From IMG/VR virus record IMGVR_UViG_3300025133_000004, positions 1 to 53,281 of that record: a stretch of 53,281 nt of DNA. One strand, written 5' to 3'. Position numbers and translations under genes: made by a program. Below, in pieces: positions 39,462 through 42,351 of this stretch (positions are counted from its first letter, which is position 1; the number at the start of each line of letters is the position of its first letter). Below the pieces are notes generated by a model. It was not told the DNA's origin and made no database searches. It was given only the letters and a program-made list of their open reading frames with translations. The stretch is from a virus.

Positions 39462-39728
39462 TTACCTCCTGTAATTTTTAGGGTAGTTATCTTGCCACCA
39501 TGTCCATTCAGGCATAGACCTATCTGTTGGTGGGATTTCTTTAATTGTACCTCCTGTTTTAAAGAACTCCTCAATCTGAGAAGCAACATTCAGGGGTTCT
39601 TTTGTTTTTACTTTGTCGGGGTTGTTGATTACCTCTTGATGGGCCATCAGTTTAGCTAGACCTGATGGGAAAGTGATGTGTTTCTCTCCGTTGATTTCGT
39701 TATAGGGCACCTTTAGTTTGTTGCTCAT
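39462..39728 (-). CDS. hypothetical early protein (88 aa, shortened start), first gene of the leftward operon
   Basis: The ATG at 39726-39728 is preceded by AAGGAGATTGCAAG. The longer track ORF would include the promoter. Confidence 0.55.
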   Translation of the reverse strand: MSNKLKVPYNEINGEKHITFPSGLAKLMAHQEVINNPDKVKTKEPLNVASQIEEFFKTGGTIKEIPPTDRSMPEWTWWQDNYPKNYRR

Positions 39729-39777
39729 CTTGCAATCTCCTTGTTTTTCAGGCAGTTGGGTGGCTTTTGTGATGTTC

Positions 39778-39807
39778 AGCCTAGCACACTCTGGCACCCA
39801 GTGTCAA
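39778..39807 (-). promoter_or_regulatory. sigma70-type promoter of the leftward operon
   Basis: On the minus strand: TTGACA (39807-39802), 18-nt spacer, TAGGCT (39783-39778), about 50 nt upstream of the first ATG. Confidence 0.5.
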
Positions 39808-39817
39808 CCCCCCCTAA

Positions 39818-39840
39818 ATATATATTGGTTTAATATATAT
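39818..39840. promoter_or_regulatory. perfect 9-bp AT inverted repeat next to the -35 element
   Basis: ATATATATT-GGTTT-AATATATAT read directly. Candidate operator or UP-like element. Confidence 0.35.
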
Positions 39841-39875
39841 GGTGAAGGTTTAAATTTTTAGTTACTGATTATTAC

Positions 39876-39901
39876 AATAAAAAATGGAACATCCTTGTTC
39901 C
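39876..39901 (-). terminator. short hairpin plus U-run (weak terminator or attenuator)
   Basis: On the minus strand: GGAACA-AGGA-TGTTCC followed by ATTTTTTATT. Confidence 0.3.
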
Positions 39902-39932
39902 TAATACTACTACAGGAATTTATTTAACTCTT

Positions 39933-40000
39933 TAATTTTCGGTCAACGCTATTTAAATTTTCGGTCCACTTCAATACAAATATTTTTAATTTCGGACTAC
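39933..40000. repeat. three direct iteron-like repeats AATTT(T)CGG(T/A)C(A/C/T)AC
   Basis: taattttcggtcaac (39933-39947), aaattttcggtccac (39955-39969) and ttaatttcggactac (39986-40000). On the minus strand the first reads TTGACC-18 nt-TAAATT, which is promoter-like. Confidence 0.55.
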
Positions 40001-40016
40001 ATAAATCTAATCACTG

Positions 40017-40060
40017 CAAAAAAAAATAAACTCTCTTAATTCAATTAAGAACTAAGAGAG
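40017..40060 (-). terminator. rho-independent terminator of the 68-aa gene
   Basis: On the minus strand: CTCTCTTA...TAAGAGAG stem followed by TTTATTTTTTTTT, directly after the stop at 40070. Confidence 0.7.
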
Positions 40061-40069
40061 CTTAGTAAG

Positions 40070-40276
40070 TTACTTAACTCTAGAGATTAAACCTTTTGAG
40101 ATAGTAACTTCAGCGTAAAATTCTCGCTTAAAACCAGTGATGTGAGGTCGGTTAGAGCCATAAATTACTTTATTAGGAGCATATTCTTCTCCGAATATTG
40201 AAGTCTCTGTGTAATTCAGTGGCTCACCGACCGCCTCGGCTAAAACTTTTTTAGTAGGATAATTTAAAACTAACAT
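40070..40276 (-). CDS. hypothetical protein (68 aa), stand-alone cassette
   Basis: Track ORF with AGGAGAACATT before the ATG and its own terminator. Confidence 0.6.
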   Translation of the reverse strand: MLVLNYPTKKVLAEAVGEPLNYTETSIFGEEYAPNKVIYGSNRPHITGFKREFYAEVTISKGLISRVK

Positions 40277-40380
40277 AATGTTCTCCTGTAGTGAGTAAAA
40301 TTTTTTGAGTCCTTCACCCGCTGAGGGCGAACAAAAATTTTACGGTAGGAGAACATTATGTGCAAGTAAATTATCCTACA
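40252..40380. repeat. imperfect palindrome 1: mirror copy of the RBS, start codon and first ~12 codons of the 68-aa gene
   Basis: Left-arm blocks aggataattta, acataatgttctcct and taaaattttt recur as reverse complements at 40331-40380. A GC-rich apical hairpin sits at about 40311-40330. Confidence 0.8.
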
Positions 40381-40433
40381 ATAAAATAAAAAAAAATAAA
40401 AAAAAACTCAAAACCTTTTTATAACATATAAAT

Positions 40434-40462
40434 AAAAAAATCCCCGCTATAAAGCAGGGATT
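40434..40462 (-). terminator. rho-independent terminator of the 129-aa gene
   Basis: On the minus strand: AATCCCTGC-TTTATA-GCGGGGATT followed by TTTTTTATTT. Confidence 0.7.
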
Positions 40463-40480
40463 CTTTGACTTCTAAGATGA

Positions 40481-40870
40481 TTAAAATGCAGGTAAACCAT
40501 CTCTCTTGTAGCGCTTCATAACTTTAGGCTGAAGCTTTAGCTTCGTGCTTGTAAGTTTCTTGGGAAACATTCCACTGAACTTAACTGATGAAAAATGCTT
40601 ACGGGGATTTCCATCATATCCAAGGATGGTCTTTCCCTCTGAATCCTTCATCTCTACGATGCATTCAGAACCTATCAGACCCAAGAAGCGTTTGTAACAA
40701 ATGCCTCTCATTGAAAGAGGAATACTTACTTCATCCTCTAAAGTTACATTCAACTGATACGCTGCGGGTTTTGCAACGGTGTTCCAATCAAGAGTAGTGT
40801 CTTGAGTGTCTGCTCCGTTGGCACGAATTAACTCAAGTTTATCTTGAGTTGTGTTAGGTTGTTTAGCCAT
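40481..40870 (-). CDS. hypothetical protein (129 aa, shortened start), stand-alone cassette
   Basis: The ATG at 40868-40870 (MAKQPNTTQDK...) is preceded by CAGGAGAAACACT. The longer track ORF (to 40996) runs through the leader hairpin. Confidence 0.6.
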   Translation of the reverse strand: MAKQPNTTQDKLELIRANGADTQDTTLDWNTVAKPAAYQLNVTLEDEVSIPLSMRGICYKRFLGLIGSECIVEMKDSEGKTILGYDGNPRKHFSSVKFSGMFPKKLTSTKLKLQPKVMKRYKRDGLPAF

Positions 40871-40984
40871 AGTGTTTCTCCTGTAGTGGCTAGTGGATTT
40901 AGCGGAGAGATTTTTTATCCCCCTCACACTTGCAGGGGGGCAATGAAAAATATTGGAGCGCTTTAAATCCACTAGGCTCTTCAG

Positions 40985-41372
40985 GTCTAGAAACACTTGA
41001 GCTAGACGGCCTGACGCGGCTCTTAGATGAACTAAGTTAATTCGGGCGCAGACACTCTTAGACCTACGTTGAATTGGGAGATTGTTGCAGGCAGCGTATC
41101 ATGCTCGTTTAATGTAACTTTAGACGCTTGGATGAAGTAACAGTTATTTCTCTATGAGAGGCATTTGTAATGCTTCTTGGGTTGCATTGATAGGTTCAAT
41201 CGTAGAGAGCTTTGAAGGATGGGAAAGCCCATTTGGATAGTACTGATGGAAATGTAAGCATTGGCTTTGAAGAGGTTAAGTTCGTTCTGTTTAATGTTAG
41301 AAACTTACAAGCAATCTTGCCTAATATGAAGTGTGGAGAAAGAGATGGTGCCCTTACCTGCTTTTGAATCTT
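40985..41372 (+). pseudogene. degenerate plus-strand mirror copy of the 129-aa gene (no intact ORF)
   Basis: Aligns block-wise to the reverse complement of 40481-40870 with many frame-breaking indels. The start codon position reads TTG AGC. The terminator-like hairpin at 41387-41411 has lost most of its U-tract. Confidence 0.5.
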
Positions 41373-41441
41373 AGAAGTTGTATTAGAATCCCTACACTTT
41401 GGGCGGGGATTTTTGAGATTTGTATGTTATATATTAATAAA

Positions 41442-41641
41442 CTCCATAGGATAATTGTGGTTGAAGTTATTAATTAAATAAATTATTGAAATCTTTGAAG
41501 TTCTCCAGAGTTTTAAAATAACTCTACATACTCAGGAGTTTCTGTAATACTTTGGAAACCTGATGTTGAAATCTTGGGAGAACTTCAAAGTTCCTCAAGT
41601 CTTTTACATACAAATCTTCAACCACACTTTCTAGAATGGAG
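41442..41641. repeat. imperfect palindrome 3 / candidate multi-stem structured element without an ORF
   Basis: Paired blocks are ctccat/atggag, tgtggttgaag (41456-41466)/cttcaaccaca (41616-41626) and ctttgaagttctcc (41493-41506)/ggagaacttcaaag (41577-41590). Two local hairpins lie inside. Confidence 0.7.
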
Positions 41642-41723
41642 CAATCTTAGAATTCTACATTGACCTCCAGAGTTCTTAGAGGGTACGCAGAAGCCCCATA
41701 CCCCCCACTAGGGTATATTGTAG

Positions 41724-41752
41724 TTGACATACATTTTATGGTGATTTATAGT
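41724..41752 (+). promoter_or_regulatory. sigma70-type promoter (rightward)
   Basis: TTGACA (41724-41729), 17-nt spacer, TATAGT (41747-41752). Confidence 0.55.
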
Positions 41753-41900
41753 GTAAACTAGTTAGCGCGGGAACTTTAAAGACTTCAAAGGGTCTTTAGG
41801 GGAGGGATGTTGTATTTACTAGGTACGTTAAGGACGGGGGGTGGTTATGTGATGTAGTGAACCTCGGTGGGTTCTATAGTATTATACACCCAAATTACAG

Positions 41901-41925
41901 TTTTGTCAATATGCACTTGACAAAA
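41901..41925. promoter_or_regulatory. perfect 9-bp inverted repeat overlapping the -35 element (candidate operator)
   Basis: TTTTGTCAA-tatgcac-TTGACAAAA read directly. Confidence 0.45.
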
Positions 41926-41945
41926 GCTCAAAATGACTGTATAAT
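41917..41945 (+). promoter_or_regulatory. consensus sigma70 promoter immediately upstream of terS
   Basis: TTGACA (41917-41922), 17-nt spacer, TATAAT (41940-41945). The terS ATG lies at 41956. Confidence 0.7.
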
Positions 41946-41955
41946 ACTGTATATT

Positions 41956-42351
41956 ATGAAAAAAGAATTAACAACAAAGCAACAGACTTTCTTAGACCAT
42001 CTTGTTCAAACGGGAGGTGATCCTAAAGAAGCTGCAAAGTTAGCCGGGTATTCCGAGAATGGACATTGGCAGGTTGTACACGCACTTAAAAATGAAATTA
42101 TAGACTTAGCCTCTAACATACTCGCACAATCCGCACCTAAAGCAGCTATGAAACTTGTGGATATAATGGAATCCAATAGTCCAATTCCGCAAGCTAACAT
42201 TAGAGTACAGGCAGCACAGACAATTTTAGACCGTACAGGTTTAGGAAAACAAGAAAGACTAGATGTTAGTCATAAAGTAGAAGGAGGATTGTTTATACTT
42301 CCGGCTAAAGAAGAGATAGTTATTAATGGAGACACGACAGAGAACGAGTAG
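41956..42351 (+). CDS. terminase small subunit (Terminase_2/P27-like), shortened start
   Basis: LTTKQQTFLDHLVQTGGDPKEAAKLAGYS matches the small-terminase HTH pattern. The longer track ORF (from 41857) would contain the consensus promoter. Confidence 0.7.
   Translation: MKKELTTKQQTFLDHLVQTGGDPKEAAKLAGYSENGHWQVVHALKNEIIDLASNILAQSAPKAAMKLVDIMESNSPIPQANIRVQAAQTILDRTGLGKQERLDVSHKVEGGLFILPAKEEIVINGDTTENE

What the first reader, a model, noticed from the sequence alone, without database searches (positions are those of the whole stretch)
40252..40380. Leader hairpin that buries the SD and start codon of the 68-aa gene in a mirror copy of itself
Read on the minus strand, the sequence is AGGATAATTTA..ACATAATGTTCTCCT..TAAAATTTTTG, then a GC-rich apical stem (CGCCC-TCAG-CGGGTG), then CAAAAAATTTTA..AGGAGAACATTATGT..TAAATTATCCT. 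The second half contains the SD (AGGAGAA), the AUG and the first ~12 codons of the 68-aa ORF. The first half is their near-perfect complement. On the plus strand the mirror arm retains TAGGAGAACATTATG followed by TGC AAG TAA, a 2-codon remnant. If both arms are transcribed, ribosome access would need melting or cleavage of a stem of about 45 bp. That would be a built-in translational lock, comparable in principle to the RNase III-processed hairpins of T7 early mRNAs but including the initiation region itself.
Basis: partly seen in the sequence, partly recalled or inferred. Interest (0 to 1): 0.62.

Follow-up and report, generated by a model that had tools for sequence, protein, structure and literature searches.

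The report
Co-evolving hairpin burying phage gene start
In an uncultured marine phage, the ribosome-binding site, start codon and first 12 codons of a small early gene can pair with a mirror copy just upstream; relatives keep this pairing through matched changes on both sides, so it most likely works as a known kind of translational lock, here unusually long.

Summary
An interrupted inverted repeat at 40247-40386 folds (minus strand) into a ~46-bp, four-helix hairpin: -51.3 kcal/mol, z = -8.8, 0 of 200 shuffles as stable. It buries the SD, the AUG and codons 5-8 of the 68-aa gene.

The same architecture recurs in nine distinct relatives from two diverged clades. 13 of 33 scored pairs changed on both sides (0 of 500 shuffles reach this). 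Right-arm changes are mostly synonymous codon changes, which the non-coding left arm follows. Unpaired internal loops persist, which argues against simple re-copying.

Opening the initiation region costs about 25 kcal/mol when the left arm is in the RNA, and 3-5 kcal/mol when the RNA starts at or after 40347. A strong terminator lies directly upstream.

Best reading (about 0.5): fold-back silencing of transcripts that carry the left arm, as in IS200 tnpA, T4 e/I-TevI and IS10.

The neighbouring 129-aa gene has a much longer mirror, which an earlier scan report on this same window (e1-3505536) already described. This is a new variant of a known kind, of moderate interest.

The parts
40435..40466 (-). 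Intrinsic terminator t1 of the upstream 129-aa gene (14-bp stem, 5 G-C pairs, U7 tail), conserved in all relatives directly upstream of the hairpin
   Evidence: terminator scan; the same terminator in L052, L054-L057
40387..40434 (-). U-rich spacer between t1 and the left arm. It contains (T9A)x2, and one 10-nt unit is missing in some otherwise identical contigs
   Evidence: indel at 40397-40406
40367..40379 (-). Left (5') strand of the outer helix, GTAGGATAATTTA. It pairs with codons 4-8 of the gene
   Evidence: covariation
40347..40361 (-). Left (5') strand of the 15-bp helix, ACATAATGTTCTCCT: a perfect complement of the SD, spacer, AUG and one further base
   Evidence: I4, 100%
40337..40365 (-). 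Candidate sigma70-like promoter inside the left arm, TTGCAC(40365-40360)-17-TAAAAT(40342-40337). The predicted start near 40330 would leave the anti-SD arm out of the mRNA. Not conserved in relatives
   Evidence: listed as TGCACA-16-TAAAAT, 9/12; absent in L052 and the L054 clade
40296..40342 (-). Upper part of the hairpin: the A/U helix TAAAATTTTTG/CAAAAAATTTTA enclosing the G+C apical stem-loop CGCCC-TCAGC-GGGTG (40329-40315). The apical stem has a G.U that pairs only on the minus strand
40288..40295 (-). Unpaired 3'-side internal loop CTCACTAC, just 5' of the SD. CACTACAGGAGAA is identical upstream of the 129-aa gene
   Evidence: (exactly two copies in the window)
40273..40287 (-). Right (3') strand of the 15-bp helix: SD AGGAGA (40287-40282), spacer ACATT, AUG (40276-40274) and the first base of codon 2
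40254..40266 (-). Right (3') strand of the outer helix, TAAATTATCCTAC, within codons 4-8
40070..40276 (-). 68-aa gene (phrog_37117, function unknown). The model is confident (pLDDT 94) and has no PDB match
40027..40064 (-). Terminator t2, which closes the 68-aa cassette

Best explanation
The element is a cis-acting RNA fold-back lock on the 68-aa gene. Any minus-strand transcript that carries the left arm folds into a four-helix hairpin of about 46 bp. Such transcripts are either read-through past terminator t1 or starts within the 48-nt U-rich spacer. In the hairpin the SD, the AUG and codons 5-8 are double-stranded, so 30S subunits cannot bind.

Together with t1, the hairpin insulates the cassette twice from the strong leftward promoter upstream: once at transcription and once at translation. 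Protein would then be made only from RNAs whose 5' end lies at or beyond about 40347, for example from a promoter inside the left arm, or at a very low constitutive level.

Shown here: the structure, its statistical significance, its conservation with compensatory changes, and the dependence of the computed opening energy on the 5' end.

Inferred: that the functional strand is the mRNA, that the left arm is co-transcribed in some RNAs, and how the lock is bypassed.
For: 1. Stability is far beyond chance: -51.3 kcal/mol, z = -8.8, 0 of 200 shuffles.
2. The same four-helix plan is found in nine distinct relatives of two clades whose 68-aa proteins are 57-85% identical: L051/L052, and L054-L057, L060, L061, L063.
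3. On the two longest helices, 87% of cells pair and 13 of 33 pairs changed on both sides. 0 of 500 shuffles reach this, and slid registers give 0-3.
4. The right-arm partners of these changes are mostly synonymous or conservative codon changes (TTA to CTA, ACT to TCT, TAT to TAC, GCT to GCC, AGT to ACT), so the non-coding arm tracks the coding arm.
5. The internal loops are non-complementary, differ in length between arms and persist within each clade, while the helices next to them co-vary. This fits selection on helices rather than wholesale re-copying.
6. In the window's own clade, the wobble pairs fit the mRNA strand: G.U in the apical stem of WIN, L051 and L052, plus U.G in the SD helix and apical stem of L052.
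7. The cost of opening -13..+13 is 24.8-25.3 kcal/mol with the whole left arm and 16.7 with a 5' end at 40365. It is 3.3-4.7 with a 5' end at 40347, 40330 or 40300.
8. Only this gene and the adjacent 129-aa gene have mirror leaders, in the window and in every relative. Both are stand-alone cassettes closed by terminators, which ties the feature to gene starts.
9. No ORF on either strand is conserved across the left arm.
10. There are documented precedents with the same logic: IS200 (PMC4513863), T4 e and I-TevI (PMC3014915) and sigG (PMC5942855).
Against: - No transcript data.
- t1 should stop most upstream transcripts. In L055, L056 and L061 only about 17-20 nt separate its U-tract from the left arm, which leaves no room for a conventional promoter upstream of the arm.
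- No sigma70-type promoter is conserved at any position, either upstream of the hairpin or inside it. The route to expression is therefore unknown.
- Compensatory changes preserve a DNA palindrome as well as an RNA helix.
- In the L054 clade, two conserved C.A mismatches in the upper helix would be G.U on the opposite strand, and that strand folds 6-13 kcal/mol better.
- In the neighbouring 1-kb palindrome, wobble positions favour the opposite strand: 26:7, 29:10 and 49:18.
- Homologues of the gene in other phages have no such leader.
Confidence: 0.5

Rival explanations
1. The functional structured molecule is, at least in part, a plus-strand (antisense) RNA transcribed across the palindrome. 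It could be an art200/RNA-OUT-like stem-loop RNA that pairs with the initiation region or with the left arm of the mRNA, so the mirror exists to give the antisense RNA its own stable hairpin.
For: - The plus strand folds as well as or better than the minus strand in every genome: -54.0 against -51.3 in WIN, and 6-13 kcal/mol better in the L054 clade.
- Two conserved C.A mismatches in the L054-clade upper helix become G.U on that strand.
- The adjacent 1-kb palindrome shows a significant excess of plus-strand wobble positions and folds 15-37 kcal/mol better on the plus strand.
- A -10-like hexamer that is the reverse complement of the SD-AUG spacer (CATAAT in WIN, TACAAT in the L054 clade) sits in the right arm facing the antisense direction.
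- IS200 combines exactly such a sense stem-loop with an antisense sRNA.
Against: - In the window's own clade the wobble pairs favour the mRNA strand.
- The antisense promoter matches are weak (8/12), absent in L052 and no better than chance in A+T-rich DNA.
- No terminator follows the hairpin on the plus strand.
- The strand bias of the 1-kb palindrome can equally be a deamination-type mutation bias acting on both arms of one strand.
Confidence: 0.15
2. The hairpin is an RNase III substrate and cleavage is the regulatory step. Either cleavage unlocks the gene, or it destroys transcripts that carry both arms.
For: The geometry resembles phage RNase III sites (my own knowledge of T7 R1.1): helices of 13, 15 and 11 bp stacked across asymmetric internal loops. 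Long dsRNA segments of this kind are typical substrates.
Against: - Unlocking is physically implausible. After a single cut in the 3' internal loop, the SD/AUG strand stays in a 15 + 13 bp duplex with the left arm (inference).
- A double cut in the 15-bp helix falls between the SD and the AUG.
- No Rfam family matched.
- Cleavage cannot be tested here.
Confidence: 0.08
3. The palindrome works at the DNA level, as part of a replication origin, a packaging signal or a protein-binding/cruciform site in the divergent control region. Its overlap with the gene start is incidental.
For: - It is one of three consecutive palindromes (about 140 bp, 1 kb and 200 bp). These lie next to three 17-nt direct repeats (39931-40000) and back-to-back consensus promoters, at the point where cumulative GC skew reaches its minimum.
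- Compensatory changes also preserve DNA symmetry.
Against: - Both palindromes are centred about 55-65 nt upstream of a start codon, and each mirrors its own gene's SD and AUG. This is unexpected for an origin or a pac site.
- The large asymmetric internal loops (5x5, 4x8) disfavour cruciform extrusion but are normal in RNA.
- Half-site co-variation across three separate helices, reaching into coding sequence, is not how protein operators evolve.
- The G.U pairs in the WIN clade are strand-specific.
Confidence: 0.12
4. It is a selectively neutral by-product: an old inverted duplication of the gene's 5' end, perhaps seeded by the small apical inverted repeat. It is kept similar by intramolecular template switching or gene conversion between the arms.
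For: - The neighbouring gene is mirrored as a whole cassette, including a mirrored terminator, with many non-triplet indels (82% identity). That looks like a decaying inverted duplicate.
- The left arm carries a mirror SD and ATG with no conserved ORF.
- Quasi-palindrome correction is a known mutational process (my own knowledge).
Against: - Non-complementary loops of unequal length persist between the co-varying helices in both clades, whereas conversion tracts should erase them.
- The helix that is most perfect in every genome is the one over the SD and AUG.
- The element has survived a divergence at which the proteins are only about 57-66% identical.
- Long palindromes are normally unstable and would be lost without selection.
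Confidence: 0.13

Closest known systems
IS200 tnpA leader: left-end bidirectional terminator plus a 70-nt inverted repeat whose stem-loop sequesters the SD, with the antisense sRNA art200 (Ellis et al. 2015, PMC4513863)
   Same: The order of parts is the same: intrinsic terminator against impinging transcription, then a long inverted repeat forming a leader stem-loop that buries the SD, then the gene. The palindrome can fold on both strands.
   Different: - This hairpin is about twice as long (140 nt, about 46 bp).
- It also buries the AUG and reaches codon 8 (weaker complementarity to codon 12).
- It sits on a small phage early gene rather than a transposase.
- Neither a transcript start upstream of the repeat nor an antisense RNA has been shown here.
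T4 gene e (lysozyme), I-TevI, segB and mobE hairpins with a late promoter in the 5' strand of the stem (Uzan & Miller 2010, PMC3014915)
   Same: These are phage genes whose ribosome-binding site is sequestered in transcripts that start upstream and is free in transcripts that start inside the hairpin. The computed opening energy here switches in the same way with the 5' end.
   Different: - The T4 stems are short (roughly 6-12 bp), and their internal late promoter is defined and conserved.
- Here an internal promoter is predicted only in the window's own sequence and is not conserved.
- This phage has no recognised late sigma factor.
IS10/Tn10 fold-back inhibition of transposase read-through transcripts (Davis, Simons & Kleckner 1985; from my own knowledge, not read here)
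   Same: An upstream complement of the initiation region is present only in externally initiated transcripts and blocks their translation. It acts as a second layer of protection next to transcriptional insulation.
   Different: - The IS10 element is shorter.
- Its pIN and pOUT promoters are mapped.
- It has not been described with co-variation into the coding region.
[quoted passage not shown]
   Same: The hairpin can form only in read-through RNA, not in RNA from the gene's own promoter.
   Different: It is a cellular gene with a short stem, and its promoter is defined.
T7 early-mRNA RNase III processing sites (R0.3, R1.1 etc.; from my own knowledge)
   Same: They are phage leader or intercistronic hairpins with two helices around an asymmetric internal loop.
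   Different: - T7 sites lie between cistrons and do not contain the SD or AUG.
- Cleavage there separates mRNAs, whereas here a cut would not free the initiation region.
- Membership is not supported.

Membership tests
Initiation-region-sequestering leader hairpin (fold-back inhibition of translation) | The SD and start codon are base-paired with an upstream complement in the most stable fold | tested here: met
   a 15-bp perfect helix covers AGGAGAACAUUAUGU, and opening -13..+13 costs about 25 kcal/mol
Initiation-region-sequestering leader hairpin (fold-back inhibition of translation) | The pairing is maintained in evolution by compensatory changes | tested here: met
   13 of 33 pairs changed on both sides, 0 of 500 shuffles reach this, and slid controls give 0-3.
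Initiation-region-sequestering leader hairpin (fold-back inhibition of translation) | Both strands of the helix are present in one transcript | not testable with these tools
Promoter scans are ambiguous
Initiation-region-sequestering leader hairpin (fold-back inhibition of translation) | Removing the upstream strand raises translation | not testable with these tools
   Needs reporter fusions. Only the computed opening energies are available
T4 e / I-TevI type (hairpin plus internal promoter) | A promoter lies within the DNA that encodes the 5' strand, so the gene's own transcripts lack that strand | tested here: inconclusive
   The window has TTGCAC-17-TAAAAT (start near 40330) and TTGTAG-15-CATAAT (read by eye from the sequence; no promoter scan lists it). 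L052 has CGAAAT or CATAAG at the corresponding positions. The L054 clade has only TACAAT with a poor -35
IS200-type double insulation | An intrinsic terminator lies immediately upstream of the SD-sequestering inverted repeat | tested here: met
   (40466-40435). It is conserved in all relatives
IS200-type double insulation | An antisense sRNA is encoded opposite the leader | not testable with these tools
   No RNA data. Only weak antisense promoter matches
RNase III processing site of T7 type | Intercistronic position: the hairpin does not include the next gene's initiation region, and a single cut releases a translatable downstream mRNA | tested here: not met
   the SD and AUG are inside the 15-bp helix. 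After a cut in the 3' loop, the initiation region stays in a 28-bp duplex (inference)
Intrinsic (rho-independent) terminator or attenuator | A G+C-rich stem directly followed by a U-tract | tested here: not met
   One search lists no terminator at 40247-40386 on either strand. The hairpin is followed by coding sequence on the minus strand and by an A-rich tract on the plus strand
Any curated RNA family (Rfam 15) | A match at or above the family's gathering score | tested here: not met
   nothing over 40247-40386. All six weak hits in 39700-42100 are far below their gathering scores
Leader-peptide (uORF) coupled control | A conserved short ORF is translated through the 5' strand of the hairpin | tested here: not met
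   the 31-codon frame that is open in the window is closed by stops in L052 and in the L054 clade

The most novel reading that the evidence does not exclude
The two mirror leaders (this 140-nt one and the 1-kb one next door) would be parts of one undescribed phage control module. Palindromes built from each gene's own start region would be transcribed on both strands, giving sense and antisense hairpin RNAs. These would lock, and through pairing with the anti-SD arm possibly unlock, two stand-alone early cassettes. The consistent plus-strand G.U excess would then be the footprint of the antisense partner.
Probability: 0.15. Interest if true: 0.75.

Novelty: new variant of a known kind. Interest (0 to 1): 0.45.

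Why it matters
Hairpins that hide a ribosome-binding site are a classic way to keep costly or selfish genes silent. They were known from transposases and from T4 lysis and homing-endonuclease genes.

Here the same logic appears in abundant uncultured marine podophages whose closest cultured relatives are pelagiphages of the HTVC103P/115P type. The form is extreme: about 46 bp, reaching into the coding sequence, and co-evolving with it.

- It marks the 68-aa and 129-aa proteins as products whose dose or timing the phage controls tightly. That makes them good candidates for host-takeover or otherwise toxic functions.
- The non-coding arm tracks synonymous changes in the gene, so the first 8-12 codons are under a double constraint (protein sequence and RNA pairing).
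- If the bidirectional or self-antisense reading were right, it would be a new regulatory design.

Tried and rejected
- **DNA search in the phage collection.** blastn of 39800-41000 found nothing.
- **Exact mirror pattern in IMG/VR.** Nothing found.
- **Relatives of the 129-aa protein in IMG/VR.** None found. Relatives had to be reached through protein-identity look-ups instead.
- **Near-identical population contigs (about 20).** The hairpin is invariant in them, so they give no covariation information.
- **Upstream ORF that could open the hairpin by translation.** Rejected, because the frame is not conserved. Conserved antisense ORF: rejected.
- **Conserved sigma70 promoter upstream of or inside the hairpin.** None found. 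TTGAGT-17-TATTTT is disrupted by the 10-nt indel variant, and the internal TTGCAC-17-TAAAAT is specific to the window.
- **Shared motif search** (YCCRWWWWWTTTT). Uninformative.
- **Rfam.** No family matched.
- **Closest cultured relative, HTVC115P** (DNA polymerase 50% identical). No mirror leaders at its early gene starts.
- **Inversion (flip) of the apical segment** as the explanation for the clustered SNPs in L036. Rejected: it is a diverged apex, not an inversion.
- **Function of the 68-aa protein.** No Pfam hit, only a PHROG of unknown function, a confident model and no PDB fold match.
- **Strand assignment from wobble pairs.** Contradictory for this hairpin: the WIN clade favours the mRNA strand and the L054 clade the opposite strand.

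Full report
**Context**

The window is a complete 53,281-bp IMG/VR virus record.
- Structural genes run on the plus strand from terS (41956) around to 24649.
- The replication and early genes run on the minus strand from about 40870 to 25261. They include a T7-like primase-helicase, a family A DNA polymerase, endonuclease I and ribonucleotide reductase.
- No phage RNA polymerase was recognised.
- The closest cultured relatives are pelagiphages HTVC115P, HTVC103P and HTVC104P, with DNA polymerases 48-50% identical.
- Two perfect TTGACA-17-TATAAT promoters stand back to back at 41875-41951, one in each direction.

Leftward from there lie, in order:
- an ORF-poor kilobase
- a 129-aa gene (ATG 40870) and terminator t1 (40466-40435)
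- a 48-nt U-rich spacer
- the element under study
- the 68-aa gene (40276-40070) and terminator t2 (40064-40027)
- three 17-nt direct repeats, followed by the long early operon

The repeat finder reports the 15-nt perfect pair 40273-40287/40347-40361 and the 20-nt pair 40247-40266/40367-40386. On the minus strand the RNA folds into four coaxial helices:
- a 13-bp outer helix (40379-40367 with 40266-40254, within codons 4-8)
- the 15-bp helix over AGGAGAACAUUAUGU
- an 11-bp A/U helix
- a 5-bp G+C apical stem

These are separated by a 5x5 loop and a 4x8 loop. The MFE is -51.3 kcal/mol against -21.8 +/- 3.4 for shuffles, z = -8.8. The plus strand folds equally well at -54.0 kcal/mol. The two-codon remnant on the plus strand (ATG TGC AAG TAA) is there. 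It is not conserved: L052 has a different 17-codon frame, and no frame on either strand is conserved.

**The element is conserved and co-varies**

About 20 marine-metagenome contigs carry the identical 68-aa or 129-aa protein (JGI samples and ENA assemblies, one of them labelled TARA). They have an identical hairpin and differ only by a 10-nt T9A unit in the spacer.

Diverged relatives were reached through protein look-ups and one pattern scan:
- L052 (76% aa identity) and L051 (85%, cut inside the left arm) belong to the window's clade.
- L054, L055, L056, L057, L060, L061 and L063 form a second clade with the same synteny: TerL, TerS, about 1 kb, the 129-aa homologue, t1, the hairpin, then the 68-aa homologue.

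All of them have the same plan, although the sequences differ. For example, the SD-AUG spacer is ACATT in one clade and TTGTA in the other, and each left arm matches its own gene.

I excised the outer and SD/AUG helices in register, joined them with an artificial GAAA loop and counted pairs:
- 87% of cells pair.
- 13 of 33 pairs changed on both sides, which 0 of 500 shuffles reach.
- Slid registers give 0-3.

The coding-arm partners of these changes are mostly synonymous or conservative (TTA to CTA, ACT to TCT, TAT to TAC, GCT to GCC, AGT to ACT, ATC to ATT). The non-coding arm therefore follows the gene.

The loops between the helices stay non-complementary and of unequal length within each clade, while the adjacent helices co-vary. 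Examples are CTTGC/CAAGC opposite TAGTT/TAA, and ACCG/TATCG opposite CTCACTAC. That pattern fits selection on pairing better than tract-wise re-copying.

**The feature is tied to gene starts**

I scanned every ATG-ORF start for an upstream reverse complement of its own -22..+45 region. The 68-aa and 129-aa genes rank first and second in the window and in L056 and L057, and are among the top three in L054. No other gene stands out.

Homologues of the 68-aa gene in other contexts have no mirror. These comprise 26 IMG/VR loci, L053 and cultured Rhodobacter, Pseudomonas, Erythrobacter and other phages. HTVC115P has none at its early genes.

The 129-aa gene's mirror is much larger. The whole cassette, including its terminator, is mirrored upstream at 82% identity with many non-triplet indels. 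This agrees with an earlier report of this scan on the same window (e1-3505536), which I re-checked.

The two cassettes share an identical 13-nt CACTACAGGAGAA just before the start. It occurs only twice in the genome.

**What the structure would do**

I used partition-function calculations to find the cost of making -13..+13 single-stranded.

| RNA 5' end | Opening cost (kcal/mol) |
|---|---|
| t1 U-tract (read-through) or 40386 | 24.8-25.3 |
| 40365 | 16.7 |
| 40347, 40330 or 40300 | 3.3-4.7 |

The lock is therefore essentially absolute whenever the anti-SD strand (40361-40347) is in the RNA, and absent otherwise.

A single T7-style cut in the 3' loop leaves the initiation region in a 15 + 13 bp duplex with the left arm. 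A double cut in the 15-bp helix separates the SD from the AUG. A conserved upstream ORF that could open the helix by translation does not exist.

**Where the RNA starts is unresolved**

- t1 is a strong terminator (14-bp stem, U7), and in some relatives only about 17-20 nt separate it from the left arm.
- The window has TTGCAC-17-TAAAAT inside the left arm, with a start near 40330. By eye it also has TTGTAG-15-CATAAT, with a start near 40348; no scan lists this one. Either would give an unlocked mRNA, as in T4 gene e.
- These hexamers are not conserved. L052 has CGAAAT or CATAAG, and the L054 clade has only TACAAT with a poor -35.
- The host, and hence its promoter rules, are unknown.

**Which strand**

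For this hairpin the wobble evidence is split.
- In the window's clade, the apical stem has a G.U in WIN, L051 and L052 that would be A.C on the plus strand. L052 adds U.G pairs in the apical stem and in the SD helix.
- In the L054 clade, two conserved C.A mismatches in the upper helix become G.U on the opposite strand. That strand folds 6-13 kcal/mol better.
- In the 1-kb neighbour, plus-strand wobble positions outnumber minus-strand ones 26:7 (WIN), 29:10 (L056) and 49:18 (L057), but 26:21 in L054. The start-proximal 200 nt fold 15-37 kcal/mol better on the plus strand.

This could mean a functional plus-strand RNA. It could also be a strand-specific deamination-type bias (C to T and A to G on the plus strand) acting on both arms. 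A palindrome cannot separate these two explanations.

**Verdict**

The best reading is a fold-back translational lock of a known kind that, together with t1, insulates the cassette twice. The closest precedents are:
- IS200 tnpA: terminator plus an SD-sequestering 70-nt inverted repeat, with an antisense sRNA from the same repeat (PMC4513863)
- the T4 e and I-TevI hairpins, with a late promoter in the 5' strand of the stem documented for gene e (PMC3014915)
- IS10 fold-back inhibition (my own knowledge)
- sigG (PMC5942855)

It differs from these in several ways:
- its length (about 46 bp over 140 nt)
- its reach into the coding region
- its demonstrable co-evolution with synonymous sites
- its occurrence on two adjacent early cassettes of a marine podophage lineage

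I give the RNA-lock reading about 0.5. The remainder is divided among an antisense or bidirectional RNA, a DNA-level role, neutral concerted evolution and an RNase III-centred mechanism.

The 68-aa protein gives a confident model (pLDDT 94) with no PDB match and no Pfam family. Why it needs such tight control is therefore unknown.

Noticed in passing
window 40836-41032 (and the whole 40430-41420): The mirror hairpin over the start of the 129-aa gene folds far better on the plus strand (-102.7 kcal/mol, z = -11.6) than on the mRNA strand (-66.5). In the outer 22 bp, 7 of 10 expected U's in the left arm are C, giving C.A on the mRNA strand and G.U on the plus strand. Over the 1-kb palindrome, plus-strand wobble positions outnumber minus-strand ones 26:7. 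The same bias appears in L056 and L057 but not in L054. The cause could be selection for a plus-strand fold or a deamination bias; I could not tell which.
   Followed up: partly
window 40397-40406: The U-rich spacer holds two tandem T9A units. Otherwise identical contigs (L031, L036, L038, L041, L046, L047) lack one unit. This shifts the hairpin by one helical turn relative to terminator t1.
   Followed up: partly
L001 start, L051 start, L055 end: Three independent metagenome contigs end inside one or other strand of the SD/AUG helix: L001 at the position equivalent to 40353, L051 2-3 nt from it, and L055 5 nt after the ATG. The perfect arms (15-20 nt) are shorter than usual assembly k-mers, so the cause (a coverage drop at the hairpin, or something real) is open.
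   Followed up: no
window 41875-41951: Two perfect TTGACA-17-TATAAT promoters stand back to back, with 7 nt between their -35 boxes. One faces terS (ATG 41956, about 10 nt after the -10, hence near-leaderless). The other faces the roughly 1-kb ORF-poor leader.
   Followed up: partly
window 39931-40000: Three direct repeats of TTTAATTTTCGGTCAAC-like 17-mers, spaced 22 and 31 nt apart, lie just downstream of terminator t2, near the minimum of cumulative GC skew. They could be iterons or operators.
   Followed up: no
window 40332-40346; 40940-40960; equivalent places in L054-L057: Just 5' of the C-rich apical stem, both hairpin families carry TCC(G/A) or (A/T)(C/T)CG followed by an A/T hexamer ending in T (TAAAAT, CAAAAT, CGAAAT, ATATTT, TATTTT). 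This is on the same strand and is not mirrored. It could be a -10-only promoter or a binding site, but no matching -35 is conserved.
   Followed up: partly
L036 (equivalent to window 40914-40998): One otherwise 99% identical contig carries a diverged apex of the 129-aa gene's hairpin: nine SNPs plus indels, with the stem still able to pair. It looks like a patch acquired from another lineage rather than an inversion.
   Followed up: partly
window 40070-40276: The 68-aa protein (phrog_37117) gives a confident AlphaFold model (pLDDT 94, small alpha/beta fold) with no Foldseek match in the PDB below E = 2. Homologues are scattered in Rhodobacter, Pseudomonas, Erythrobacter, Tunturiibacter, Roseobacter and Pelagibacter phages.
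   Followed up: partly
window 39462-39728: An 88-aa early protein has a weak, sub-threshold hit to the SutA RNA-polymerase-binding domain (PF20661, E = 3.6e-4, 20.3 bits against a cut-off of 29.3). A different 79-aa protein in L056 carries the same weak mark. It is a possible modifier of host RNA polymerase.
   Followed up: no
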